A DNA stretch of 64,000 bases from Octopus sinensis (GCF_006345805.1 NC_043000.1:149358001-149422000), one strand, 5' to 3'. Shown: positions 7,958 to 64,000, counted from the stretch's first letter. Notes: generated from the letters alone by a model not told the origin. Translations and numbers: made by a program.

Positions 7958-8164
7958 TATATATAATATATATATATATATATGCATATACATATATATA
8001 TGCATGTATATATATATATATATAATATATATATACATATATTTATATATTTATAAAAATATGCATACATGCATATATATCCATACATATATATATATAT
8101 ATATAATTTTATTTTTTATTTTTATTATTTTTTATTTATTTATTTTTATCTATTTTTATTTATT

Positions 8165-9780
8165 TTATCTAGTTTCAGCTCACGAGCTGTGGCCATGCTG
8201 GGGCACCGCCATTTGGTGTTGCTACGTGATTTTACTTCACGAATGCTTTTTAGCAATTGCCATTTGGGGCATGAGAGAGTTCGATGCAGCTGCCCTCATC
8301 TGCATCTCCTGTCGGGAAGTTGGTTCATCCGGGACACCTGACAGGAAGAGATCCAGTTTTATTTTAAAGACATCTGCATCCACCCCATGTAGGTCTCTCA
8401 GGTTCTTCGGAAGGATATTGAAGAGCTGTGGGCCTCTGAAGCCCAGGCTACACAGTATCTTGTCCTGCATCTTGATGGCAAATTTGGAGTCCTTGCACTA
8501 TGCAGTAGCGCCCAGTTCTAGTATTTGTGTAACTCTCGATGCCAAAGTTTGGGACAAGTCCTTCTAGGATCTTCCATATGTATATTTTGGCATATCTCTC
8601 TCGCCTACGCTCTAAGGAATAGAGTCTTAATCTCTTGAGTCTTTCCCAGTAGCTTATATGTTGCACAGAGGCTATCTTCTTCGTGTAGCTTCGTTGGATC
8701 GCCTCAAGTTCTGTGATTAACTTGACACTGGATGGTGACCATAGCTGAAATCATTGGTCAAAGTGGCTTAGGACAAGTGTCCTCCAGAGGACCATCATGG
8801 TTTCCTGGTCTCTTGTTCTAAAGGTTCTAAGAATCCATCCGATCAGCCGCCTACATTTCATTGCTAATTTAGCAACATACCCATGAAAGGTCGCATCATC
8901 ACTCATGTAAATACCCAGGTCTCGCACTGATTGTGCCTCTGGGATTGCAATCCCTCCAGGTCCAGTGTATTTATTGGGTATTGCATTTAGTTTTGCATGC
9001 TGATAGCATAAAGCTTGAAACTTTTCAACATTGAACTGCATGCTATTCTTTTCAGCCCACTTGTATATTTTGTCCAGCTCACATTGCAGGTGCATAGTGT
9101 CTTCAGGGTTCTGTATTGCCTGCGAAACTTTTGTATCATCTGCATAACTTGTGATCGTGGCTCTCTGCGTGGCTGAGGGCATGTCTGAGAGGGCCATTAT
9201 GAACAGTAGTGGTCCCAAAACAGTGCCTTGCGGAACACCGCTAACTATTTGCGTGTTAATGGAAGTGACCCCATTGGCTGCTACCACCTGGCCTCTATCC
9301 TTCAGAAAGTCATGAAGCCATTCTCCCAATTTTCCAACTATGCTAAGATCATGCAGTTTGTGACATATCATTCCATGATCGACTTAATCAAAGGCCTTTG
9401 CAAAATCGAGATATATGACTTCCACATATGAGTGGTTGAGCAGTCATTTCAGCACCCAGTCATAGTGTTGTAGGAGCTGAGTTAGGCAGCTTCTTCCTGG
9501 TCGGAAACCATGCTGGGTGTCAGGCAGCAAGTCATTTTCTTCAAAGAAGGTGATTATTTTCCTTCTGACTATTCGTTCCATGGCCTTGCTGATGTGTGAG
9601 GTCAGAGAGATAGGTCTGTAGTACTTGGCCTCCGCTCTGCTACCTCCTTTATGAATAGGGCATATTTTACCTTCCTTCAGTTTTCTTGGAAGTTTGCCAG
9701 TTGCAAGGAAGCTCTGAAAGAGGAACTGCAGTGTTCTTGCTAGGACTCTCTTACATACTTTTAGAAGGATTGCTGGGAAT
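8165..9780 (-). mobile_element. 5'-truncated CR1/L2-group LINE (RT and 3' UTR)
   Basis: Motifs QHGFR, DFAKAFD, GVPQGTVLGPLLF, YADD, VRDLGI and YSLERRRERY, followed by an A-rich tail. Confidence 0.9.
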
Positions 9781-34002: not shown

Positions 34003-34213
34003 CAGGCAGTGAGCTGGCAGAAACGTTAGCACGCTGGGTGAAATGCGTAGCCGTATTTCGTCTGCCGTTATGTTCTGAGTTCAAATTCCGTTGAGGTCGA
34101 CTTTGCCTTTCATCCTTTCGTGGTCGATAAATTAAGTACCAGTTATGCACTGGGGTCGATGTAATTGACTTATTCCGTTTGTCTGTCCTTGTTTGTCCCC
34201 TCTGTGTTTAGCC
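34003..34213 (+). mobile_element. tRNA-derived Nin-domain SINE, family D
   Basis: Head ggcagtgagctggcagaa...gagttcaaattcc, a Nin-like ctttcatcctttcgtggtcgataaattaagtaccag, and tail tgtctgtccttgtttgtcccctctg...taaagaaa. Confidence 0.85.
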
Positions 34214-34680
34214 CCTTGTGGGTGGTAAAGAAATATATATATATATATGTACACACACACACACACGCAATCGTGTGCAACCATATCTAATGTTTGTGGA
34301 CATGGGAATGCCATTCAGTGCAGAAATAGTCCTGGAGTAAAATTCTCCTCGCAGACAAAATGTGTCAAACACATTAGGCTTTGAATGATGTCATCAGACT
34401 GTGTGATGCATGTATTTTTAGATCATTGTCTGTCATCAGCTATGAATACGAAGTTTGTCCTTCTCTGCCCCATAAGAACAATAGTTGATATTCATAAGAA
34501 CAATAAACATTACATTTGTGATTGTAAATGCTGCAGTTACTGTTTAACAAAGGGTTAAGTGATAAAATATTCATTAGTTCTCAGATATGCTTCTGTTGTT
34601 GCTTTTTGCTGGAATAGTTCTTGTTTTAATGTGGGTTTTTTTTTTGTTTAAAGTTCTTGAAGTTAAATTATAGATGTCAA

Positions 34681-37765: not shown

Positions 37766-37842
37766 TATTCAAATGTTCCCGAGATATTTAGTAGCTAAAA
37801 GAACAACACCCCCTCTACCTGCTGCTACTACTAAATAATAAT

Positions 37843-38059
37843 CCTTTCTACTGAAGGCACAATGCCTGAAATTTGTGGGGAGGGGACAAGTTGATTACAT
37901 TAACCCCAGTGTTCAACTGGTACTTAATTTATTGACTCCGAAAGGATGAAAGGCTAAGTTGACCTTGGCAGGATTTGAAATCAGGACGTAGCAACAGACG
38001 AAATACTGCTGAGCATTTCACCCAGTGTGCTAACGATTCTGCCAGCTCGCTCGCCACCT
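37843..38059 (-). mobile_element. Nin-domain SINE, diverged, with a different tail from family D
   Basis: ccgaaaggatgaaaggc...ttctgccagctcgc head region. Confidence 0.75.
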
Positions 38060-39870: not shown

Positions 39871-39934
39871 AATAATAATAATAATAACAATAATAATAGC
39901 AACAACAACAACAACAACAATAATGATGATAATT

Positions 39935-40130
39935 TTTCTAATTATATCACAAGATCAGCAAATTTGAGGGGAAGGAGCTAGTCAATTACATCAAATCCAG
40001 TACTTGACTAGTACTTTATTTTATCCCTCTAAAGATGAAAGATAAAGTTGTCCTCAGCAGGACGTAAAGAGCTACAACGTAAAGAGCTACAACAAATGCT
40101 ATTGATGATTCTGCCAGCTAGCCACCTTAA
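39935..40130 (-). mobile_element. Degenerate Nin-domain SINE
   Basis: Similar to 37843-38059. Confidence 0.6.
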
Positions 40131-42931: not shown

Positions 42932-43867
42932 GATCCTCAGACAAAATTAATAAATGACTTGAATATAACATTCACAACACCAAGCATCATTCAAAATTCT
43001 ACAGAAATATCCTCAATTCAGGGAGACATTTTCTCTTTTAAAAAGGAACTTCCAAAGAATACCATGAACCTTTCCAATGAAATCTCAGTATTGACTGCAT
43101 ATTTCAATTTAGGATCCTTTGCAAAAGGCAGTCCTGGACATCAGTATACCCCAAATATCTATTACAAATGGATGTCTGTATTTGGCAACTTGACTAACAA
43201 TTTAATTGTTTATACAGATGATAAAATTGCATACAAATATTTCCAAAAATTAAGGGAAAAGTTTCCTAAAGAGCGAACCAAAATATTTCTGATAAACAAG
43301 AAAGAATTGTGGTCATTTCAGATAGAAAAAAATATTTCTCAAATATATAAACAACCTGGTTACCCAAAATATCTTCCCAATACTGTTGTGCCTGGGTATT
43401 CTTGTGCCATGCATGCAAAATTTGAACTTCTTAATCGGGTTATAAGAAAGAACTATTTTCATACTAAATACTTTATGTGGTTAGATATTGGACTTTTTCG
43501 AAGTCTCCGTAATGATTCTAAATTTAAATTGAGAGTACCTACAGATTTTAATGAAGCTAAAGTTGCTTACAGCTATGTATATGATTTTAAAAAGGATGTA
43601 ACATATAAAGACATTATTTATCACAACATGGTGTGGGTAGGAGGTGCCAGCAATCTTGGTAAATATGATGTTTTGTACAAATTTACTCAAGAGTATTTGA
43701 ACTTCCTTAACAAGTCTTTGTCCATAAAACTAATAAGTACAGATCAACAGATATTATATGGAATGTATGTGGACAAACATAAACCAGAAACAAAGCTTCA
43801 ACTTTATAAATCAGGTTGGTTTAAATTGGGTTATGTATGTTATACAGTTGAAAAGACACCAACCTGA
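42932..43867 (+). CDS. Coding exon 3: HtrL/YibB (WlaTC)-like putative glycosyltransferase domain; full protein 360 aa
   Basis: Acceptor ttaacag| in phase 0 and an uninterrupted 311-codon frame. Motifs VLTAYFNLG, NLIVYTD, Y..AMHAKF, YFMWLDIG, WVGGA, TDQQIL and GWFKL are colinear with E. coli HtrL motifs as I recall them (ITAYFDIG, WIDFG, IGG, DDQ, WF). Confidence 0.85.
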   Translation, partial: DPQTKLINDLNITFTTPSIIQNSTEISSIQGDIFSFKKELPKNTMNLSNEISVLTAYFNLGSFAKGSPGHQYTPNIYYKWMSVFGNLTNNLIVYTDDKIAYKYFQKLREKFPKERTKIFLINKKELWSFQIEKNISQIYKQPGYPKYLPNTVVPGYSCAMHAKFELLNRVIRKNYFHTKYFMWLDIGLFRSLRNDSKFKLRVPTDFNEAKVAYSYVYDFKKDVTYKDIIYHNMVWVGGASNLGKYDVLYKFTQEYLNFLNKSLSIKLISTDQQILYGMYVDKHKPETKLQLYKSGWFKLGYVCYTVEKTPT

Positions 43868-51720: not shown

Positions 51721-52284
51721 ATGCTAATAAGGTGTGACTGGGGCTCTCAAAGCTTAATGCGTGCACACACAACTGGGTCCCTACCAAGCCTACAAATGCT
51801 GCTTCATCCCTCTTTTGCACCCACTAGACAGTTGGGTCTCTCCTTCAAGCCATTTTTTATTGACATCTCATTTTTACCAGTGACTCTCCCATTCTTGTTT
51901 GTATCCATCTTTTTCTCTCTTCTCACTTGTAACCTTTAACCCAATCCTTCGTTACTCCACTACTCACCTTTCAAATGCTTTCCTATCTACTGTTTAACAT
52001 GTGACTGTAAGAAATGAAAGCAGAACCTGCTACTATACCATACTGTTATCTTTGTACTACCAGCTTTCACTCCCTCTCCTCTGTGCCATCCCCAAATGGC
52101 ATCCATTTCTCATTTTTATAATTGTCTACTCCACTCATATTTATCAACCCCACCTTTGCTCACCATTCAGTACATTTATTCCCTATATACATCTGACCAC
52201 TTTGAAGACCATGCTGCTATCCCTCTTTCACTCCATTTTCATACTCTTGCAATCTTATCCACCCTTCCTGATTATTCTGTACCT

Positions 52285-52695
52285 CTTTACTCTTTTACTC
52301 TTTTACTTGTTTCAGTCATTTGACTGCGGCCATGCTGGAGCACCGCCTTTAATCGAGCAACTCGACCCCGGGACTTATTCTTTTGTAAGCCCAGTACTTA
52401 TTCTATCGGTCTCTTTTGCCGAACCGCTAAGTAACGGGGACATAAACACACCAGCATCGGTTGTCAAGCAATGCTAGGGGGACAAACACACTCACACAAA
52501 CACACACACGCATATATATATACATATATATGATGGGCTTCTTTCAGTTTCCGTCTACCAAATCCACCCACAAGGCTTTGGTCAGCCCGAGGCTATAGTA
52601 GAAGACACTTGCCCAAGGTGCCATGCAGTGGGACTGAACCCGGAACCATGTGGTTGGTAAACAAGCTACTTACCACACAGCCACTTCTGCGCCTA
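52285..52695 (-). mobile_element. SINE family A
   Basis: Full head and tail. Confidence 0.9.
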
Positions 52696-52899: not shown

Positions 52900-53137
52900 T
52901 GAGGGGCTCTTTAATCTTGCAAGTTATCAGGTAACCTCAGTAGTGCTGGTGCCATGGAAAGAAAGCACCCAGTACACTCTGTAAAGTAGTTAGTGTTAGG
53001 AAGAGCATCCAGCTGTAGAAACCATGCCAAAACTGAGATACTGAAGCATGACATAGTCCTCCAACCTGTTTAAGCCTGTCAAAATATGCAACTCAAGCCA
53101 GCATGAAAAGTGGACGTAAAAGTGATGATGATGATGA
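52900..53137 (+). mobile_element. Old RTE-type 3' UTR fragment
   Basis: ttaggaagagcatccagctgtagaaacc...ggacgtaaaa followed by (GAT)n. Confidence 0.7.
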
Positions 53138-53170
53138 TTTATTTATACTTTAATTAAAATGACAATTTGT

Positions 53171-55036
53171 TGTGGTGAAATCTTGACACTCCTGGGGGTT
53201 AGCAAGTGAACTGTCCTAAACCTTTTAAAGGTGGATGTGTACTGACGGTGCGAGGTACAGTGTGGTGTTTTCTGGTTAAAATCCTGGTGATTCCGTAGAA
53301 ATAAGTGGTGTTATAATTGCTATAGTATATTTGTTGAAGGTCTCCCCTCGTGTGTGTACCTACGATTGTTGATTGTTGAAATTGCTATTTTTACATACGA
53401 GTTTGTAGCTTTGTGTTTCTTTTCTTCCCGTTTATAGGGGAGCTTGAGAAGAGAAGAAAAATGGAACAAGTACCAGAAAAAGGCCACAGTTATGCGGCAG
53501 TAACTGGTAGAGGAGTAGACTCTGACGCTTTGGAGGTTCGTGAGGTGAAGGTAGAACCGAAGTAGCTAAAAGAGTCCGAAAAGTTATTGAAAAGAGAAGG
53601 CCATACTTTAAAATTAACGCTACCAGATGAACTAACAAATTGTGCAAGAAACAGAACTGTGATATACAAAACACTGAAAGTGTCATCGAAAAAAATTGAA
53701 ATCGCAACTATCGAAGCCATTTGCGAGTGTCTAAAAGCAGTTAAAAAGTTCACCACTTTTATCACAAGAGGAAGGAAGTATCGCATAGCGGAGGTGCGCT
53801 TCGTGACGGAAGACGAAGCGATAAAGCACGCCACTGTAGTCATAAATACGGAAGAATGGGTACTTTTGCCAACGTACTATGGCAAGCGTGTTGCCAGGGT
53901 GAGAGTTGGAAAAGTACCCCCAGAAATAAATGAAAGATGGTTGGTAGCAGCGATAATGTTTAACATGGAGGAAGATGCAAAAATACTTAAAGTGACGAGA
54001 AACAAAAGGTTAAATTGTATGGCATAGAGATGTCCATACAAGCAATTTTAAGTGACTTAAACAAAACTACAGAGAAATAATTTTACCTGAGGATGTGAGG
54101 CTGATAGTGGTAGTGGAAAGCAGGCCTCCTATATGTTATCAATGCAGGGGAAAAGGCCATATGAAGGCGAGGTGTCCCCAGAGAGAGAGAGAGAGAGAAC
54201 AACAGATGGAACAATCTGAAGAAAAGAGGTGGACGAAGTGGTAGAAGATGGTGTGAAGGAGACGGTAATAATGGAGAAAGCGTTCACAGTGGTTAAAAAA
54301 CGAAAAAGAAAAGAAAGAGTAAGCTCTCCGCCGGAGAGGCAGAAAAAGAAAAAAAGAAGAGCTTGAGAAAGAGGTGACAGTAGCAAAGGTACTGGCTACA
54401 TTAGCGGAGGAGGAAGATTTGGGTGGTGAAGAGAGACGACAGCACGAAAGTAAAGCAGTGGCAGTATCTAAAATGGAAGAGGATAAAGACAGAGTGAAGG
54501 CGCCAAGAGTGGATCATGGGAAAAACAAACAAGCGAGAAAGCCGAAGAATTTCGTGACATACGCCAAGAACACGGCAATAGAAAAACAGATAACGAAGTT
54601 TAAATCCATAATAAGGGTGAGGTTGCCTGCGGATGTTTACACGAAAAATGTGAAAGCAATTGTTATAGATAAAGAGAGGTATAACGGGTTGAAGGAAATG
54701 CTTGGAAGGGAGATTGATCCACCGGGAGTTGAGGTGGAGTTTGGCGAACTACCGCCAGTGATGGAATATAGAGAATTAGAACCATATATGAACTATTAAA
54801 AAAAAAAGAGTAAGTAAAATGAAAAAAAAAACACTATGCTAATGGAACAAACAAAAGGAAAGAAGAGATTATAAACTGCCTGAAAGAACGGTCAAATGGT
54901 ATTGCATGAGAGTGGGGCTCAAGCAGCCATTTCATCTTCATTTATTATATCGTTTTGTGTTTTTGTCCCCACTGTGTTGTTCTGTCTGTCCTTGTGCTGT
55001 CCCCTCAGTGTAAAAGCCTGGGTGCTTAAAGAATTA
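53171..55036 (+). mobile_element. ORF1/Gag-only element, copy 1 (apparently full length; disrupted ORF 53461-54799)
   Basis: MEQVPEKGHSYAAVT start, an RRM-like region, knuckle CYQCRGKGHMKARC (54134-54175), a K/E-rich linker, and C-terminal ...FGELPPVMEYRELEPY. The short 3' UTR ends taaagaatt, and there is no RT. Confidence 0.75.
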
Positions 55037-55041
55037 GTATA

Positions 55042-55273
55042 TATTTCTTTATTGCCCACAAGGGGTTAAACATAGAGAGGACAAACAAGGACAGACAAAC
55101 GGATTAAGTCGATTACATCGACCCAGTGCGTAACTGGTACTTTATTTATCGACCCCGAAAGGATGAAAGGCAAAGTCGACCTCGGCGGAATTTGAACTCA
55201 GAACGTAACGACAGACGAAATACGGCTACGCATTTCGTCCGGCGTGCTAACGTTTCTGCCAGCTCACCGCCTT
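55042..55273 (-). mobile_element. Nin-domain SINE family D with a ~16-bp TSD
   Basis: ttaaagaattagtata occurs at 55026-55041 and 55273-55288. Confidence 0.92.
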
Positions 55274-55289
55274 TAAAGAATTAGTATAG

Positions 55290-57070
55290 TGTGATGTGTG
55301 CAGTCGCATTTGTGAAGGCAGTCGTAGAAGTCGTTGAGAAGAGATATAAGTTTGTTTCTGATTTAGTTTTAGTAGTGTTATAACACTGTTACAGTGTAGT
55401 CTAGATCCAAACTCAAGAATGTGAGTGGCATCGATACATTCGAAGCTCAGCATGGACGTTCTTAGCATGGAAGACCTGTTATCTTCAGTGGTACAGTTGC
55501 AACGGCAACTACAACAAGAACAACAGAAACAGCAACAACAGGTACAACAGCAAAATCAACAGTTGTTGGTCTTGTTGTTGCAGTATAAAAACACTTCAGG
55601 TTCGTTTCCGGCAGGCGAGGTTGCTAATTCAATTGAAGAATTTACTTATAATCCATAAGAAGGGATTACGTTTTCTGCATACTTCAGAAGATATGAAGGA
55701 ATCTTCAAACAAAAATGTAGAAATTGGGCGGAAGAAAAGAAAGTACGTCTTCCAGTAACATTGCTTTTATATTCCGGTTCTCTTCCTTATCGGCCAGCTT
55801 AATTCTTATCACGACTTTCATCTTTGAGATTTTTTTTCTCTATTTCCACACTCTCCTCGTATTGCACCATCACTCTTTCGTATTTCCCCTTCGGTGGCTT
55901 TCTTGGCTGTATCCCTTCACTCTCTGTCTGATTCCATCTCTGTTTGTTGCTCCTTTTCACTTCCTAGTCTCTTCTGTCTTTCCTCCTCCTTGCTTGTTGA
56001 AGGCTCTGGTCTTTGTGTTCGATCTTCCGTTGATTCCTCATTTTCTCTTTTTTCCTCTTTATTTTCATCCGTCTTTCTTTTCTACCACAGTGGACTCTTT
56101 TTCCCCTTCTGCCATTACAATTTCTTCTTCCCGACGCTCTTTCTCCGCCTCCTCCCGATCGTGTTTCTGGGGAGACTTGGCTTTCATGTGACCCCTTACT
56201 CCACAGGCAAAGCATATTGGAGGTCTGCTTCCCACCATAATTCTAAGTCTGGTTTCATCGGGTAAATAATTTCAACAATTTTGTGGAGGTCTGATAGGCT
56301 GATATGGTCGCTGGCCAGATCCTTCAAGATCGACTGCAATAAAAAAATATGCCTCCTCCGAAAAATATTATAATGTTACAAGCATTCTCGGGGCTCGTAA
56401 ACTATTACCAAACATATATACCAAATATGCATGAGCTAAGAGCACCCCTATACAACCTGTTGAAAAAATACGTTAAATGCTATTGGTCGGACAGGTGCCA
56501 AAAAGCGTTCGAAGAAATTTTATAAGTTTTAACATCGGAACTGTCATTATCACACTTTGATCCAAATTTAAAGATAGTAATAGCATCAGATGCTAGTGAA
56601 AATAGTATAGGAGCGGTAATTTTACACAGGTATGAAAATGATAGCCTAAAATCCAGATATGAAAATGATAGTCTTCATGCTTCAAGTTCATTGTTGGAGG
56701 CTGAAAAAACTACAGACAAATTGAGAAGGAAGTATTAGCCATTATTTTCACAAATTCATACATGAAAGGAAATTTAGTCTGAAGACAGATCACCACCCAT
56801 TGTTGTCAATTTACGGTTCGAAAAAGGGTATCCGCCACACATACAGGCAACTGATTGCAGCGCTGGGGGACGATCCTGCTAAATTATAACTTCAAGATGG
56901 AATTTCTACCACCGAAAAAACTGGGACTTGTGGATGGGCTGTCAAGATTGATACCCAAATACAATGAACCGTTAGAGGACACTGTAATAGCGGCATTAAA
57001 AGCTGAAATCAAAATAAAATATATACTCTGCGACATGGTACGTGAACTACCTGTCTCTTTAGAGCTGTGA
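55290..57070 (+). mobile_element. Decayed Gypsy-type (K02A2.6-like) LTR retrotransposon: gag start and RT/RNase H remnants
   Basis: Gag-like EFTYNP.EGITFSAYFRRYE; RT/RNase H LQAFLGLVNYY, LRAPL..LLKK, SDAS..IGAV, TDH.PL and QRW...LLNY.F. A possible further 3' remnant lies at ~57640-57830. Confidence 0.85.
55760..56300 (-). mobile_element. ORF1/Gag-only element, internal fragment (copy 4), inverted, lying within the Gypsy remnant
   Basis: Minus-strand LPDETRLRIMVGSRPPICFACGVRGHMKAKSP is homologous to copy 1 LPEDVRLIVVVESRPPICYQCRGKGHMKARCP. A K/E-rich tract follows. Confidence 0.75.
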
Positions 57071-57862
57071 TTTTCAACTAGGGTTCCGCCAGTACAGTCC
57101 AGGGGTTCCGCAAGAGGTTACATAAATGCTAAACTCGACAGTAATTTCTAATTCTCCTGTGCAGATATGTGTGCACATGTTGGGCCTACGTGTACATCTA
57201 CGATTTGCACGCCAGCGTAGATGACCCTGATCCTTGGTGTGTACATGTACGTGCACTTCTACGAGTTGCATTACAGCTTAGGTGATGGTTTAGTTTTCTT
57301 TTGTAAAATACGAGTGACTATATTTGGAAGAAACATTTTAACTGCGTAAGCCATTTAGGTGTTGTTGTTAATCCGCCTTTTAAAAAATCTTTAGCTTTTT
57401 GGAAGGCGTTTTTGTAAAATCTTTTTCTTGTATGACGTCTATTAATATTTGGTCGAATGTTAAGATTAAAAATTCGAAAGAAAGTTGAATTACATGTGTA
57501 GAAAAAAAAAAGAAATAGGGAAACTGATACTAAATTATAAGATAAGTAAATATGCATAAATATTAATTCTTTACAAATTTCTGAACACAAAAGACATTTA
57601 AAACAACTGAAAAAATGGTTTACAGAAGAAAGAATAACACATGAAGAACCAATGGAATTTCTTTATGACATTTTTGACGTCCTGGTACCTCAAGGAATAG
57701 TCGAACCAACGAGTACATCGAGTAGGAAGAGAAAACAAACAGAACTTTTGCAAGTAGAGGCCAAACGAAAAATAAATATTCCAATTTCTTCCCGGGGAAT
57801 TAAGTGGAAAAAATGGGGAAGAGGTCGTAATAAATATATAATAAATAAAAGAAAAATAGTTA

Positions 57863-58072
57863 TTTCTTTATTGTCCACAGGGGGCTAAACATATAGGAGA
57901 CAAACAAGGACAGACAAAGGAATTAAGACCTCAGTGCGTAACTGGTACTTATTTAATCGACCCTGAAAGGATGAAAGGCAAAGTCGACCTCGGCGGAATT
58001 TGAACTCAGAACGTAACGGCAGACGAAATATCGCTAAGCATTTCGCCCGGCGTGCTAACGATTCTGCCAGCT
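57863..58072 (-). mobile_element. Nin-domain SINE family D
   Basis: Same sequence family as 55042-55273. Confidence 0.88.
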
Positions 58073-58088
58073 TAAAGAGGGAAGATAT

Positions 58089-59971
58089 TATGGTGAAATT
58101 CTGACACCCCTGTGGGATGGCAAGTGATCTGTCCTAAACCTTATAAAGGCGCATGCATACTGATAGTGTGAGGTACAGTGTGGTGTGTTAATCCTCGTGG
58201 ATTGTATTGGTAGCAATTTGGGGGGGGGGGTAGTGCGTTCGGCTGTTTTCTGTAAATTTTGTTTTGTGTTACGGATAGTTATCCTTTGTTTAATGTTTTT
58301 TTCACTAGCGGGGTGTCTGTTGATTGTTTTGAATTTTAATATTGCATTTGCTTTGTGGTTGTTCTCTCCTAGTGGGGAAAAGCTACAATGGAGGTAAAGC
58401 AAGTGCGTGCTGGCAGCTACGCAGCAGTAACGAAATGCAGAAGTGTTGCAGAGGCTGTAAGAAAGTTGGAAGTAATGGAAGTGGCTGTGGACTTGGAGGC
58501 AGTGGAGAACAGCCGGGATTTATTTGGGAAAGAGGGTGCAAAGTTAGAATTGACGCCACCAACGGAGGTGACAACAAACAAAGAACTGACGACAGTGATG
58601 TACAGAACTCTGTCACTGCTAACTAGGAAGATAGAAACGGCGAGAGAAGACGTTGAAGAATGCCTGAATAAGGTGAGCGAAAAAGTCGAATATTTCTGTA
58701 GAGGCAGGAAATTTGGAACGGTGGAGGTGCGCTTCTCGACAGTGGAGGAAGCAGTAATGCACTCCACGGAAGCCTTGAAGTCGGAGAAGTGGGTACTGCT
58801 GCCAAATTATCTTGGGAAGAGAGTAACAAGAATAAGAATTGACAGGGTGCTCCCGGAAATTAAAGAAATGTGGTTGCTGGTAGCCATTATGATGGATATG
58901 GAAGACGACCCGCAGATTCTACAAGTGAGCCGCACAGAACAATTAAATTGGTGGGGTTGAGGTCTTAATCCAGGCCACCATTAGTGACCTTCAAATGATA
59001 ACAGAGGAGGTTGAACTCCCGGAGGATGTGAAACTGTGGGCAGTAGAGGAGGGAAGACCTCCCACATGTTACCACTGCGGGGAGAAGGGGTACATTAAGG
59101 TGAGCTGTCCCCTTCTCCAAAAATAAACACCAAAGGAAGTGAGAAAGGAAGAAATCAGTAGCAGTGAGAAGCCGGAGGAAGACACAGAGGGACCAAGTAT
59201 AAATGAAGTGCATGAAATACAAAATAGAAAGAGTAAAGAAACAAAGAACTCCTCGTCCCCGAAGAACTCTAAGAAAAAGAAAAGGAGAAAACACAGTAAT
59301 ACACAAACGCCCACACCGCAGCTAACAAATACAATGACACTAAACAGCCCTGAATCTCCAACCAAACGCACACATACATGTACATATAGCACAGTAACCC
59401 CAATAACAGAACACCCACAGGAAATCGCAAGCACTTCATGTACACGGAAAAACTCAAACTGAAACAGTACAGATACACCAACTGATTACACACAAATAGG
59501 CACACAATAAAAACAATATAAAATATCAACATGATTTATAACATACTACTGGACAAATTCAGTGATTGAAAAACAATTTAACAAAATGAAGACAGTTGTC
59601 AGGGTTAAAGAAGAGGAGACAGTACAAGCTCTAGGTAGGAAATGTATGATTATTGATAGAAAGTGTTACAAAAGGTTGAAAGCAATAAACCCATTGGGAG
59701 CAGAAATAGACTATTTTGGACCTTTGCCACCTGTGGTGGACTTTGAAAAATTAAATCCACTGTATACTGAACGGAAATGATTTAGTTATAATCTTGATAC
59801 AAAATAGATTTAAATGGGACTGCTCAGAAGTGGGGTCGAGTAGTAGCTATCACATCTTCCTTGTATAATTATCATATCATTCATTCGTCTATGTTGTTTG
59901 TCCCCACTTGTGCTGTCTTGTCTGTCTTTGTTCGTCCACCCTATGTACGCTTGAATAAGCAAATAAAGAAA
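58089..59971 (+). mobile_element. ORF1/Gag-only element, copy 2 (divergent subfamily; disrupted ORF 58388-59780)
   Basis: Same 5' leader as copy 1. GSYAAVT, RGRKFGTVEVRF, WVLLPNYLGKR, CYHCGEKGYIKVSC (59067-59108) and FGPLPPVV. Ends aataaagaaa. Confidence 0.75.
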
Positions 59972-61712
59972 CCGGTGGGTTAATCCTTGTGATTCTGGTT
60001 TAAATCCTTGTGATTCCGTAAAAGCAAGTGGTGTTATTGTATATTGTTGAAGGTCTCTCCCTCGTGGGTGTACCTACGATTGTTGATTGTTGAAATTACT
60101 GTTATTGTTGTTTGCATACAAACTTGTTTAATTATGATTGTTTTCTTCCCATTTATGGGAGATATGGAACAAGTACCAGCAAAAGGCCACAGTTATGCAG
60201 CAGCAACTGGTAGAGGTGTGGACATTGACGCTTTGGAAGTTCGTGAGGTGAAGATGGAGCCAAAGAAGTTGAAAGAGTGTGAGAAATTGTTGAAAAGAGA
60301 AGGTAATACTTTGAAATTAACGCCACCAAAAGATCAAACGAATAGTGTGATAAAAAGAACTGTAATATATAAAAATCGAAATTGCAACCATCGAAGCTAT
60401 CGAAGAATGTTTAAAAGAGATTAAGAAGTTCACTTTTATCACAAGAGGAAGGAAGTATGGCACAGTGGAGGTGCGATTCGTGACGGAAGACGAAGCGTTA
60501 AAACACTCCACTGTAGCCATAAAGACGGAAGAATGGGTACTTTTGCCAACGTACTGTGGCAAGCGTGTTGCCAGGGTGAGAGTAGGAAAAGTACACCCGG
60601 ATATAAATGAAACATGGTTGGTAGCAGCAATAATGATTAACGTGGAGGAAGACGTAAGAATACTTAAAGTGACGAGAACCAAAAGGTTAAATTGATCGGG
60701 GTATGGCATAGAGATGGCCATACAAGCAAGTTTGAGAGAATTAAACGAAATTACAAAGTTTTACCAGAGGATGTGAGACTGAGAGGGTAGGCCTCCCATA
60801 TGCTATCTATGTGGGGAGAAAGGCCACATGAAGGTAAGGTGTCCCCTGAGAGAGGAAGAACGACGGATGGAACAGTCTGAAGAACAAAAGAAGGAAGACG
60901 AATTGGTTCAAGAGGGTGCGAAGGAGACGGTAGTAACAGAAGAGGTGTCCACAGTGGTAAATAAGCGTAAAAGAAAAGAACGAGTAGGCTCTCCGCTGGA
61001 GAGGCAGAAAAAGAAAAAAGAGGTTGAGAAGGAGGTGACAGAAACGAGTATACTAGCTACACCAGCTGAAGATGAAGAGGAAGAGTTGCGTAGTGGATAG
61101 AGACAACAGAATGAAAGTGAATCTTCGACAAAAATGGAGGAAGAAATAGACAGTGTTGGGGTGCCAAAGGTGAAGGAAGGAAAAAACAAACAGGTGAGAA
61201 AACCGAAGAAACACAAGAACACGGTGATAGAAAAAAGACAACAAAGTTCAAATCCATAATAAGGGTGAGGTTACCAACAGAGATTTACACTGAAAATGTG
61301 AAAGCAATAGTTATAGATAAAGAAATGTATAATAAGTTAAAGGAAATATTTAAAAGCGAGATTAATCAACCCGGATTTGAGGTTGAATTTGATGAACTGC
61401 CACCTGTGGTAGAATATAGAGAATTGGAACCATATATGAACAATTGAAAATAAAGAGTAAGTAAAATTCTTTAAAAAAACGATGCTAAGGAAAAAAATTA
61501 CAAACGGAAAAAAGAAAAGATTAGAAACTGTAAAAACGTTCAAATGGTACTGCATGAGAGTGGGGCTCGTGCAGTCATTTCATTTTCATTTATTACATAA
61601 CATTTTTCTCATTTTCATTCGTTTTGTGTTTTTGTCCCCACTGTGGGGTTCTGCCTGTCCTTGTGCTGTCCCCTCTGTGTAATAGCCTGAGTGCTTGCAT
61701 AAAGAATTAGAA
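59972..61712 (+). mobile_element. ORF1/Gag-only element, copy 3 (5' leader missing; disrupted ORF 60164-61447)
   Basis: Close to copy 1: MEQVPAKGHSYAA, CYLCGEKGHMKVRC (60801-60842), FDELPPVVEYRELEPYM, and the same 3' UTR. Confidence 0.75.
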
Positions 61713-61729
61713 TTAGTACAGTTTGGTGA

Positions 61730-64000
61730 GTTTCTACCTACGCCTTTTCTACAAATCGAGCAGGGCCATCTACCAGAAGGAGTTTGTGGTTTGTCTACCT
61801 TCCTACTTATTAGGACTTTGGTTTTAGCTAGGTTGACTCTAAGGCCCTTCGATTCTAATCCTTGCTTCCACACCTGAAACTTCTCCTCTAGTTCTGATAG
61901 TGACTCAGCAATTAGAGCAAGTTCATCAGCATAGAGGAGCTCCCAGTGGCATCCTGTCTTGAATTCCTCTGTTATTGCCTGGACAACTATGATAAATAGG
62001 AAGGGGCTGAGGACTGAACCTTGGTGGACCCCAACCTCTACCCGGAATTCTTCACTGTACTCGTTGCCAACCCTCACCTTACTGATGGCATCCTTGTACA
62101 TGGCTCGCACAGCTCTCACTAACCATTCATCTATCCCTAGTTTCCTCATTGACCACCAGATGAGGGATTGTGGGACCCTGTCAAAGGCTTTCTCCATGTC
62201 AACGAAAGCCATGTACAGAGGTTTATCTTTGGCTAGGTATTTCTCCTGCAGCTGTCTTAGTAGAAATATAGCATCAGTGGTGCACTTCCCTGGCACGAAC
62301 CCAAACTGCATCTCATCTAAACTGACTCTCTCCCTAATTAGTTGGGCTATGAACCTCTCTGTAACCTTCATTACCTGATCCAACAACTTGATACCTCTGT
62401 AATTATTTGTATCTAAATCTTCACCTTTACCTTTGTAGCAGTTGACTACGGTGCTCCTACACCAGTCATTGGGTATGGCTCCTTCGTGTATTACCTGGTT
62501 AACTATACGAATGACTAGGCTATATCCGACACTGACTGATATTTTGAGCATCTCTGCAGTGATTCCTGGTGAGCCGGGGGCTTTCCCTGCCTTCATACTC
62601 TTGATTGCTTTATCTACCAAGGTATTGTCATTTCGGATAGCTAGTGCCTCTGTTGGGTCAACATTCAGCAGACTCTCTTTATTGAGCAACCTTTCATAGT
62701 GGCGTCTCCAAACCTCTCTCTTTGCAGCCTCGTTTAGTGCAAGTGAACCATCACCCATACAGACACATTTCTCTCCTATGACATCACGATTCTCTCTCAC
62801 ACCCTGTCTTGCAACACGAAATACCTCAAGTCTTTGGTCCGCACGGCGCAGAACATTGGCAAATTTTTTCTTATCTGCTTCCCCACTGGCTGAATAAACC
62901 TGTCTCCTAGCTTCCCTTCTGGCAGTCTGATACAATTCCCTGCTACCTCCGTTCTTCCATTCCTTCCAAGCCTGTTTCTTTTGTCTAATAGCCCTGTCAG
63001 CCACATTGTTCCACCACCACGTTACCTTGGGTTGAGAGGGGACTTTGCATCATCCACAGATCTGGTCAGTGGCTCTCAGCTGGTTGTCCTGTAGAAACCT
63101 CCAGTTGTCTTCCACATTATGTGATGCTATATCCCCTTCTATTTCATCAAAGGCTTTGATTAATACGTCTCTAAATCATTGTCCATTTGCATGATCTTTA
63201 AGCTTCCAGACCCTTCTCCTCCAAGCTGGTCATCTTCAGAGCATCCACTTAGCCCTGATCCTGAAGTTGCTAACTACTAATCTATGTTGAGGGATACATT
63301 CTTCGCCTGGGAAGGTTTTGGCATTTATAAGCAGCCCTCTTTCCCTTTTTCTGGCGAGGATGTAGTCAATTTGGCTAGTGTGTCTGCCAGAACGATAGGT
63401 GACTAGGTGACAGGCGGGTTTCCTGAAGTTGGTATTGCAAACCATAAGATCATTTACATTTCAGAACTCCAGCAGTCTGGTTCCCTCCTCATTGCGGGAA
63501 CCTAAACTATAGCTTCCGTGTATGCTATGGAAGCCCCCTGCATGTTGTATGCCACATCCATTGAAATCACCAGCCACAAAGAGAAAGTCCCTGTCATATA
63601 TCAACGAGGTAGTCTGCAATAGGGTGTCATAAAATCGGTCTTTCTGCCCATCCGGTAGCCCCGGTTGAGGGGCATAGGCCGAGATAATGGTAGCTAACCT
63701 ATGGTGAAGCACTAATATAATCTTAAGTACTCTGTCACATACTCTGACTACCTCGATTACCTTATCAACCCATTTCTCCACAAGAAGTATACCCACGCCC
63801 CCGACCCCGTCAATGTTCCCTGCCCAGAAAATCATGTACCTGTGTTTCTTGCCTGTGAGGAACCTAACAGAACCTCCTCTCCACCTTACTTCTTGGAAGC
63901 AGCACAAATCTGCACATTTCCGTTCAAGCATCTCAACAATCTCACCAGACCTACCTTTCAGTGTGCCAACGTTGAGTGTGCCAACTCTGAGGGCGTGGGA
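61730..64000 (-). mobile_element. RTE-clade LINE (APE endonuclease and RT), 3'-truncated, running off the right edge
   Basis: APE motifs FQEVRW, GVG, SAYAPQ, GDFN and QIDYIL. RT motifs NYRGIKLL, QFGF, FVDMEKAFD, GVHQGSVLSP and LYADE. Confidence 0.93.

What the first reader, a model, noticed from the sequence alone, without database searches (positions are those of the whole stretch)
54975..55110. The ORF1-only element and the Nin-domain SINE share the same 3' tail
Seen: the SINE tail tgtctgtccttgtttgtcccctctgtgtttagccccttgtgggtggtaaagaaat (34180-34234; also 55044-55098 and ~57865-57920 on minus) aligns with the element ends. These are copy 3 tgcctgtccttgtgctgtcccctctgtgtaatagcctgagtgcttgcataaagaatt (~61652-61708), copy 1 (~54983-55035) and copy 2 (~59919-59971). 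Known: SINEs share 3' tails with the LINE whose RT recognises them. Inference: a three-part system in which an unseen autonomous LINE mobilises both the SINE and the ORF1-only element. The 16-bp TSD beginning TTAAAG at the 55042 SINE fits an L1/Tx1-type endonuclease.
Basis: partly seen in the sequence, partly recalled or inferred. Interest (0 to 1): 0.72.

Follow-up and report, generated by a model that had tools for sequence, protein, structure and literature searches.

The report
Site-specific half-LINEs sharing a SINE tail
In an octopus genome, a short jumping element (SINE) and three 1.8-kb elements that encode only a predicted RNA-binding protein end in the same ~55-base tail, and the 1.8-kb elements sit at one and the same 14-base spot inside copies of another repeat, so they likely borrow the copying enzymes of a site-specific LINE that has not been found yet.

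Summary
The shared tail is real. SINE1 matches the three element ends at 44/58, 45/59 and 39/58 columns. No dinucleotide shuffle reached the score for SINE1 or SINE2 (0 of 2000 each), and the three ends are the best non-SINE hits in the window.

The stronger result is new. What looks like the elements' shared 5' end is their target: a repeat, probably the LTR of the adjacent Ty3/Gypsy-like element. Each insertion unit is bracketed by a 13-14 bp duplication of the same site. Public contigs in 3 of 4 runs show the empty site. Copies 1 and 3 descend from different masters (ORF1 dN/dS 0.26 against 0.79 ± 0.19 neutral), so the site was hit at least twice independently.

ORF1 models as two RRMs plus one CCHC knuckle, which fits the L1/Tx1 group. 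No RT-bearing element with this tail was found; no genome was available to search.

The TTAAAG lies at the SINE's 5' (second-nick) end, and two published Nin motifs are absent. The SINE is dispersed, so its driver may be a relative rather than the same LINE.

Verdict: new variant of known kinds (HAL1/HeT-A half-LINEs; Tx1-Mar/SINEU targeting).

The parts
53168..53254 (+). Target repeat, part A, first copy (starts TGTTG; probable 5' LTR start of the Ty3/Gypsy-like element). Not part of the ORF1-only element.
   Evidence: 84% identical to 58088-58186; contigs run from A+B straight into part C without any ORF1 element (table 7)
53255..53268 (+). Site B, 5' copy of the 14-bp target-site duplication of copy 1
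53269..55036 (+). ORF1-only element copy 1 (E1): 5' UTR, decayed ORF1 53461-54799 (stops and frameshifts), 3' UTR, tail
54983..55035 (+). Shared tail of E1
55026..55041 (+). Left copy of SINE2's exact 16-bp TSD (end of the E1 tail plus the first 5 nt of site B)
55042..55272 (-). SINE2 (tRNA-like head, unassigned body, shared tail 55044-55098), antisense in the E1/B junction
55273..55288 (+). Right copy of SINE2's TSD
55284..55297 (+). Site B, 3' copy of E1's TSD (12 of 14 identical)
55298..55420 (+). Target repeat, part C (rest of the probable LTR; 3' end not fixed)
   Evidence: matches the loose ends behind A+B in X1, X4 and X13 at 28, 29 and 27 of 30 letters (compared by eye)
55449..57060 (+). 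Decayed, internally deleted Ty3/Gypsy-like internal region (DUF7083 gag-like part; RT_RNaseH_2 part; no integrase seen)
   Evidence: DUF7083 E 1.9e-07; RT_RNaseH_2 E 2e-12
55760..56340 (-). Fourth ORF1 fragment (CCHC to C-terminal domain), no tail, not at site B, lying where the middle of the Gypsy-like element is missing
57861..58072 (-). SINE3 with the shared tail (57865-57920); about 7 nt short at its 5' end, no clean TSD
58074..58086 (+). Purine tract (12 of 13 purines) directly before the second copy of A: candidate polypurine tract
58087..58172 (+). Target repeat, part A, second copy (probable 3' LTR)
   Evidence: heterogeneous loose ends before 58091 in X4 (16 contigs, agreement 0.51) mark the repeat's 5' boundary
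58173..58186 (+). Site B, 5' copy of the TSD of the E2+E3 tandem unit
58187..59971 (+). ORF1-only element copy 2 (E2), a distant subfamily (ORF1 46% aa identical to E1); decayed ORF1 58388-59780; tail 59919-59971
59972..59980 (+). Short degenerate B-like spacer between E2 and E3
   Evidence: sequence seen; likeness to B judged by eye, inconclusive
59979..61715 (+). ORF1-only element copy 3 (E3); decayed ORF1 60164-61447; tail 61652-61708 followed by a short AATTAG repeat
61716..61728 (+). Site B, 3' copy (12 of 13 identical); part C is missing here and a 3'-cut RTE-like LINE fragment abuts
34005..34236 (+). SINE1 with the shared tail 34180-34234, in a TA/CA microsatellite

Best explanation
The three 1.75-kb elements encode only an ORF1 protein, carry a 3' tail homologous to that of the SINE, and sit at the same 14-bp site in two copies of another repeat (likely a Ty3/Gypsy LTR); they are likely non-autonomous 'half-LINEs' moved by the reverse transcriptase and site-specific endonuclease of an unseen L1/Tx1-group LINE. 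Shown: tail homology; ORF1-only layout; 13-14 bp duplication of site B around E1 and around E2+E3; empty A-B-C sites in public contigs; purifying selection on ORF1 between copies. Predicted: two RRMs plus one CCHC knuckle. Inferred mechanism: the element RNA is packaged by its own ORF1p, the 3' tail recruits a partner ORF2p in trans, the partner's endonuclease nicks at the A|B boundary, and target-primed reverse transcription leaves B duplicated. The regenerated site can be hit again, which gives head-to-tail arrays. The SINE likely got the ~55-nt tail core by a tail swap (its head and body also occur with another tail in this window). It likely uses an RT of the same tail lineage, but not necessarily the same site-specific family, because it is not confined to B. 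My odds: site-specific insertion 0.88; partner in the L1/Tx1 group 0.7; SINE uses an RT of this tail lineage 0.75; SINE uses the very same family 0.35.
For: Tail statistics. B with at most 2 mismatches occurs 5 times in 128,000 positions: twice after A, twice directly behind an element tail, and once in an unrelated low-complexity stretch. Loose ends behind A+B equal part C in X1 (11 contigs), X4 (13) and X13 (2); X11 shows no such row among those printed. A contig in X1 and X4 joins A+B to an E3-type body about 86% identical to E3, i.e. another locus (joint 58186->59979, side 79). Joints 61696->60086 and 61682->60456 fit tandem arrays. E1 vs E3 over 239 codons: dN 0.107, dS 0.407, dN/dS 0.26; neutral simulation 0.79 ± 0.19, 0 of 2000 as low. 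E2 is a still more distant subfamily (dN/dS 0.29 and 0.09). AlphaFold model of a homologue (P0046, pLDDT 86.9): Foldseek's top hits are tandem-RRM proteins (E 7.7e-4); VIA Z 8.0 over 80 residues to an RRM; Pfam zf-CCHC in the window ORF (E 5.8e-05). Atlas neighbours include ZCCHC3-type RNA-binding domains (0.88) and a DUF4283 cluster (TM 0.27), both leads only; PMC5203782 ties RRM/CCHC ORF1s in non-mammalian animals to the Tx1 clade and DUF4283 to plant L1 ORF1 (passages). O. vulgaris has 13 recently active L1-Tx1 families with 421 near-full-length insertions covering 2.29 Mb (PMC13282606 Table 1). Precedent for Tx1 elements that target LTR elements and for tandem copies sandwiching a TSD (PMC4494074 passages).
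Against: No RT-bearing sequence with this tail was seen. The four RT-family 3' regions I could test in the window score 11-22 against the tails, which is background; one search printed only 24 of 823 loose-end rows and gives no coding context. The clade rests on ORF1 architecture; RRM+CCHC ORF1s also occur in Jockey, L2 and CR1 lineages, there with three knuckles (PMC4120745 passages). The fourth ORF1 fragment is antisense and not at B. Loose ends behind 61680 (21, 23 and 6 contigs, agreement 0.58-0.64) show many tail-bearing copies going on with mixed, A-rich sequence, so B-targeting is not shown for the whole family. The E2/E3 spacer is only a poor B. The tails have no consensus secondary structure, unlike the stem-loops described for stringent tails (PMC3747384). 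The LTR identity of A-B-C is inferred: its 3' end, the primer-binding site and the flanking duplication were not fixed.
Confidence: 0.65

Rival explanations
1. One reading: one and the same autonomous LINE family mobilises both the SINE and the ORF1-only elements.
For: Shared tail. SINE2's 3' junction lies 5 nt into site B and SINE3 lies about 100 nt before the other B, both with TTAAAGA at their 5' junction; post hoc and weak. [quoted passage not shown]
Against: SINE2 and SINE3 are antisense to the ORF1 elements with different junctions; SINE1 sits in a microsatellite. The SINE shares only the ~55-nt core, not the longer 3' UTR motifs common to E1-E3. Summed contig depth on the bin that holds 28 bp of SINE (plus part A) is about 1000-fold that on the ORF1 bins (a crude figure, not a copy number).
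Confidence: 0.35
2. Hitchhiking: one old insertion in an LTR was copied along with the Gypsy-like element, so the shared site reflects common descent and not targeting.
For: A1 vs A2 differ at 19 of 97 aligned sites and the E1 vs E3 UTRs at 12-15%, a similar depth; E1 and E3 are one subfamily.
Against: Two LTRs of one insertion start identical and decay neutrally, but E1 vs E3 show dN/dS 0.26 (0 of 2000 neutral simulations). E2 is a different subfamily at the same site. Empty LTR-like copies are common in the contigs. E1 and E3 differ at their 5' ends.
Confidence: 0.1
3. The partner is not L1/Tx1 but another clade with a type I ORF1 (I/Nimb, R1, Jockey, L2 or CR1 sublineages).
For: Mollusc SINEs are known to use CR1, CR1-Zenon, L2 and Nimb partners (PMC11481361 passages). 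Weak Atlas neighbours DUF4780 and PRE_C2HC at 0.85-0.86.
Against: Single knuckle against three in Jockey, L2 and CR1 type I ORF1s. The CR1-like 3' end in this window has a different tail, shared with a different SINE family.
Confidence: 0.25
4. The tail likeness is chance convergence of pyrimidine-rich TGTCC-type sequence.
For: The core is repetitive; copy 2 is reached by 22 of 3000 order-3 Markov samples; no conserved fold.
Against: 0 of 2000 shuffles in six of nine pairs, the three best non-SINE hits in 64 kb are exactly the three element ends, and the match is co-terminal.
Confidence: 0.03

Closest known systems
ORF1-present bipartite non-autonomous LINEs: HAL1 (from L1), HeT-A (from Jockey), Ag-Sponge (from CR1), as listed in PMC5786205 (passages)
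   Same: ORF1 kept under purifying selection, no ORF2, 3' tail kept, RT needed in trans; HeT-A also forms head-to-tail arrays at a fixed kind of place (recalled).
   Different: Type I ORF1 (2 RRM + 1 CCHC + a conserved C-terminal domain); nucleotide-exact targeting of another transposon's LTR with a 13-14 bp TSD; that list names no Tx1-derived or mollusc member.
Tx1-clade target-specific LINEs: Tx1L into Tx1D, crocodilian Tx1-Mar into Mariner-N4_AMi, Tx1-8_Crp and Tx1-4_AMi into LTR retrotransposons (PMC4494074 passages)
   Same: Repeated insertion at one site in another transposon; tandem copies around a TSD; LTR elements as targets.
   Different: Those are autonomous EN/RT elements; here the targeted copies carry no ORF2, and the autonomous one is not identified.
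SINEU / Tx1-Mar pair (PMC4494074)
   Same: A SINE ascribed to a target-specific Tx1-type machinery.
   Different: There the link rests on shared targets, and no LINE sharing SINEU-1's 3' end was found; here the link is a shared tail and the targets differ.
Stringent SINE/LINE tail pairs (58 pairs in PMC3747384 Table 1; bivalve pairs in PMC11481361)
   Same: Short homologous 3' tail; tail swapping among SINEs with one body.
   Different: Those lists hold no Tx1 partner and no cephalopod pair; no stem-loop consensus was found here.

Membership tests
ORF1-only non-autonomous LINE (HAL1/HeT-A kind) | Encodes an ORF1-type protein | tested here: met
   Predicted two RRMs and CCHC
ORF1-only non-autonomous LINE (HAL1/HeT-A kind) | No ORF2 between ORF1 and the 3' end | tested here: met
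   190-270 nt from stop to tail end in 3 of 3 copies
ORF1-only non-autonomous LINE (HAL1/HeT-A kind) | Propagated as a unit with ORF1 under selection (not a one-off deletion) | tested here: met
   dN/dS 0.26, including the C-terminal domain at 0.22; same layout in two subfamilies
ORF1-only non-autonomous LINE (HAL1/HeT-A kind) | Retrotransposition marks (TSD, 3' tail) | tested here: met
ORF1-only non-autonomous LINE (HAL1/HeT-A kind) | Autonomous counterpart sharing the ends | tested here: inconclusive
   None in the window; no genome held; not informative on coding context
Tx1 clade | RT domain groups with Tx1 | not testable with these tools
   No RT linked to the tail
Tx1 clade | ORF1 of RRM/CCHC type | tested here: met
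   not exclusive to Tx1
Tx1 clade | Target-sequence preference (many members) | tested here: met
   At least two independent insertions at B, empty sites seen; family-wide share not measured
Nin-domain (Deu) SINE | Nin central domain | tested here: not met
   Two 12-nt motifs from the published Nin sequences have no hit in SINE1-3 at up to 2 mismatches, and window-wide counts are at chance (5 vs 4.6; 10 vs 9.0). Motif test only, no profile search.
tRNA-derived SINE | tRNA-like head with A and B boxes | tested here: inconclusive
   Head looks tRNA-like by eye; ARAGORN finds no tRNA and Rfam no match, as is usual for decayed heads
Stringent SINE/LINE pair | SINE tail homologous to the 3' end of an RT-encoding LINE | tested here: inconclusive
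   Homology shown only to the ORF1-only elements
L1-type endonuclease target (TT/AAAA first nick) | TSD starts A-rich at the element's 3' junction | tested here: not met
   SINE2's TSD starts TATACT in element orientation; the ORF1 elements' TSD starts GTACAG
Ty3/Gypsy LTR (the target A-B-C) | Two direct copies flanking gag-pol; TG start; polypurine tract before the 3' copy | tested here: met
   the second copy's start is decayed and its part C is missing
Ty3/Gypsy LTR (the target A-B-C) | CA end, primer-binding site, 4-6 bp host duplication | tested here: inconclusive
   3' end not fixed; right flank lost

The most novel reading that the evidence does not exclude
Octopods harbour a large, old radiation of ORF1-only half-LINEs (592 cluster representatives at 50% identity match the ORF1 profile; the named ones are from Octopus and Argonauta) that home to fixed sites in other transposons through a Tx1-type endonuclease and pile up in tandem. 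The same Tx1-type RT reads a specific 3' tail that a very abundant tRNA-SINE has captured. That would be a four-layer parasite chain (SINE and half-LINE on a LINE, on a Gypsy LTR) and a tail-based Tx1/SINE pair of a kind absent from the pair lists I read.
Probability: 0.35. Interest if true: 0.68.

Novelty: new variant of a known kind. Interest (0 to 1): 0.52.

Why it matters
It would add a target-specific, probably Tx1-derived member to the short list of ORF1-only non-autonomous LINEs. It would also name the likely RT lineage behind an abundant octopus SINE and show that a Tx1-type RT can recognise a specific 3' tail. It gives a defined 14-bp target and tail, so a cheap genome search can find the autonomous element. 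Sequence-specific LINE endonucleases are of interest for site-directed insertion. For annotation: the first ~100 bp that seem to belong to these elements belong to their target, which an automated consensus would merge. The families may already sit in Repbase or the O. vulgaris library, which I could not see.

Tried and rejected
No genome is held, so the decisive tail search could not be run.

Tail patterns in public collections: 0 and 0 matches in metagenome contigs, 2 in viral contigs, 4 in bacterial genomes. I took these six as chance and did not read them. The search for related loci would not take either alignment.

A search for long homologues of the E2 ORF found none, and none of the 35 homologues scanned with Pfam carried an EN or RT domain. 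This says nothing about a partner, since ORF1 and ORF2 are separate proteins.

The idea that region A is a ribozyme or small RNA: Rfam gave 0 matches for both copies and nothing convincing for 53000-62000; the empty-site contigs explain A as target.

Consensus fold of the tails: no pairs. The model of the C-terminal ORF1 domain was too poor to search with (pLDDT 60, pTM 0.35). The PDB sequence search found only zinc knuckles; the viral fold search found generic RRMs. The C-terminal and pooled dN/dS rows used a wrong frame and were dropped; one search replaces them.

No RNA holder is listed among the runs, so expression is untested. The SINE body could not be assigned: motif searches in supplements of PMC5804259, PMC4758252 and PMC4824008 found nothing (file 1 of the latter two was not searchable). 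The ZCCHC3-Tx1 link that I recalled was not confirmed in the passages searched. The HAL1 paper is not held.

Earlier-findings look-ups by place, sequence and octopus words were empty.

Full report
Setting. The window is octopus DNA: the named homologues of the ORF are from Octopus bimaculoides, O. sinensis, O. vulgaris and Argonauta hians. No genome is held. The region 53.1-61.8 kb is a nest of decayed mobile elements.

1. The observation. Global identity of the SINE1 tail is 44/58, 45/59 and 39/58 columns to copies 1, 3 and 2. Of nine SINE-by-element pairs, six were never reached in 2000 dinucleotide shuffles; the three SINE3 pairs were reached 3, 1 and 7 times. Harder nulls (order-2 and order-3 Markov, 3000 each) were reached 0/0, 1/0 and 3/22 times for copies 1, 3 and 2. 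Among 5110 sliding windows the three ends are the best non-SINE hits. As a yardstick, a CR1-like 3' end near 8160-8215 shares a 60-nt tail with another SINE family at score 50 under the same scoring, against 33-45 here. The tails have no consensus fold.

2. Two side claims fail. SINE2's 16-bp TSD is exact (55026-55041, 55273-55288), but the SINE is on the minus strand. In its own orientation the TSD starts TATACT at the 3' junction and TTTAA lies at the 5' junction. An L1-type first nick gives an A-rich TSD start at the 3' junction (own knowledge), so this TSD is no evidence for an L1-type endonuclease. The SINE ends in AAAGAAAT followed by TA, which suggests priming on target TATA (inference). 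The Nin label is also unsupported: two motifs from the published Nin sequences (PMC4758252 supplement file 4) are not in SINE1-3. The body stays unassigned. Two more copies with the same head and body carry a different tail, so the tail is a swappable module.

3. The ORF1-only elements. Each has a ~200-nt 5' UTR, one decayed ORF of about 430-460 codons, and 190-270 nt to the tail end. A profile of the N-terminal half matches 592 cluster representatives at E<=0.001; 35 homologues were scanned with Pfam and none had EN or RT. A homologue modelled from an 80-row alignment (pLDDT 86.9) resembles tandem-RRM proteins and is followed by one CCHC knuckle. A C-terminal domain is conserved from the window copies to Argonauta but could not be modelled. 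This is a type I ORF1. PMC5203782 (passages) links such ORF1s in non-mammalian animals to the Tx1 clade; PMC4120745 (passages) shows type I ORF1s with three knuckles in Jockey, L2 and CR1. The clade is therefore likely, not shown. ORF1 evolved under purifying selection between copies: E1 vs E3 dN/dS 0.26 over 239 codons against 0.79 ± 0.19 in 2000 neutral simulations, none as low; E2 vs E1 0.29 and vs E3 0.09.

4. The main new result: a fixed target. E1 and E2 seem to share a 100-bp 5' end that is 84% identical, although their ORFs are about 65% identical. Its last 14 bp (site B, 53255-53268 and 58173-58186) recur directly behind the tails of E1 (55284-55297, 12/14) and E3 (61716-61728, 12/13). 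B with at most 2 mismatches occurs only 5 times in 128,000 positions, the fifth in an unrelated low-complexity stretch. I laid 4 of the 24 listed runs on 58045-61757 at 80% likeness. Contigs that leave the window behind B continue with the sequence found behind E1's 3' B (55298 onward): X1 11 contigs, 28/30 letters; X4 13 contigs, 29/30; X13 2 contigs, 27/30. X11 shows no such row, and 799 loose-end rows were not printed. So an empty A-B-C repeat exists, A is target and not element, and B is a TSD. The layouts are A-B-E1-B-C and A-B-E2-(poor B)-E3-B. Another locus with A-B joined to an E3-type body (about 86% identical) and two go-back joints that fit tandem arrays appear in both X1 and X4. 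X1, X4 and X13 are one coded organism, so shared joints are the same loci and not independent support.

5. What the target is. C is followed within 150 bp by a gag-like ORF (DUF7083) and an RT/RNase H fragment. The second A follows a 12/13 purine tract, and the first starts TGTTG. A-B-C is therefore probably the LTR of a Ty3/Gypsy-like element, hit in both LTRs. Its 3' end and primer site were not fixed. Passive copying with the LTR cannot explain E1 and E3, because they diverged under selection, and E2 is a different subfamily. Whether E2 inserted later or arrived with E3 by template jumping, the site was hit at least twice independently.

6. Results against. No RT-bearing element with the tail was seen: the CR1-like, Dong/R4-like and two Penelope-like 3' regions in the window score at background (these family labels come from translation and recall, with Pfam RT support only for 8754-9371), and the RTE-like element is cut before its 3' end. 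A fourth ORF1 fragment lies antisense, tailless and off B. Many contigs share the tail core and then diverge into mixed A-rich ends (21, 23 and 6 contigs), so other tail-bearing families exist whose targets are unknown. The three tail-bearing SINEs are not inserted the way the ORF1 elements are; SINE2's closeness to B is a post hoc hint only.

7. Mechanism. Shown: tail homology, ORF1-only layout, TSD, empty site, selection. Predicted: RRM-RRM-CCHC. Inferred: cis packaging by ORF1p, tail-dependent recruitment of a partner ORF2p, site-specific nick at A|B, target-primed reverse transcription, re-use of the regenerated site. All three copies are in the sense of the LTR, so the LTR promoter could drive them (untested). 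The SINE likely captured the tail core and uses an RT of the same lineage; the same family is possible (0.35) but not favoured.

8. Comparison with what is known. It works like HAL1/HeT-A/Ag-Sponge (PMC5786205 passages) combined with the transposon-targeting Tx1 elements of PMC4494074 (passages), which include two families that prefer LTR elements and tandem SINEU-3 copies around a TSD. L1-Tx1 families are recently active in O. vulgaris (PMC13282606, parts 1-2 of 3 read) and expanded in coleoids (PMC8967140 passages). The 58 SINE/LINE pairs of PMC3747384 (Table 1 read) and the bivalve pairs of PMC11481361 (passages) hold no Tx1 or cephalopod pair. Ten searches found no description of these elements, but Repbase, Dfam and the O. 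vulgaris library could not be seen. Other papers were seen as passages only and did not bear on the verdict: PMC4824008, PMC5804259, PMC11203168, PMC9004415, PMC12129022 (no hits).

9. Verdict. Real, and richer than reported, but built from known parts and missing its autonomous element: new variant of a known kind, interest 0.52.

Noticed in passing
window 8160-8215 (-) and 52283-52340 (-), plus about nine further copies of that SINE: The 3' end of a CR1-like RT fragment (8751-9371) shares a ~60-nt tail with the window's other, ~400-bp SINE family (score 50): a visible SINE/LINE pair.
   Followed up: partly
window 37790-38051 (-) and 39900-40130 (-): Two SINE copies with the same head and body as SINE1-3 but a different tail ending in (ATT)n-like repeats: tail exchange.
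   Followed up: partly
window 55760-56340 (-): Fourth, tailless ORF1 fragment standing where the gag-RT middle of the Gypsy-like element is missing.
   Followed up: partly
run X11 record 10; joints 60649->61593 and 60785->61528: A 972-nt contig holding only 5' and 3' parts of the E3 type, and other internally deleted copies: possibly a still shorter, non-coding bipartite derivative.
   Followed up: no
window 57063-57850: An unclassified ~800-bp insertion between the Gypsy-like pol fragment and SINE3; its start looks like a hAT-type terminal repeat (recalled, untested); single copy in the window.
   Followed up: no
window 61729-64000 (-): RTE-like LINE (Pfam RVT_1 and Exo_endo_phos) cut after its zinc-finger motif exactly at E3's 3' B; the rest of the LTR and the LINE's 3' end are both missing, which suggests a deletion.
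   Followed up: partly
window 43064-43867 (+): Intact single-frame 267-aa ORF with Pfam HtrL_YibB (E 2.4e-12), a family described as bacterial, in an animal genome.
   Followed up: no
proteins P0012, P0032, P0051, P0088, P0136: Pieces of this ORF1 appear fused into predicted host proteins (WD40, LDL-receptor, astacin, C2H2 models): probably gene-model artefacts, possibly exonisation.
   Followed up: no
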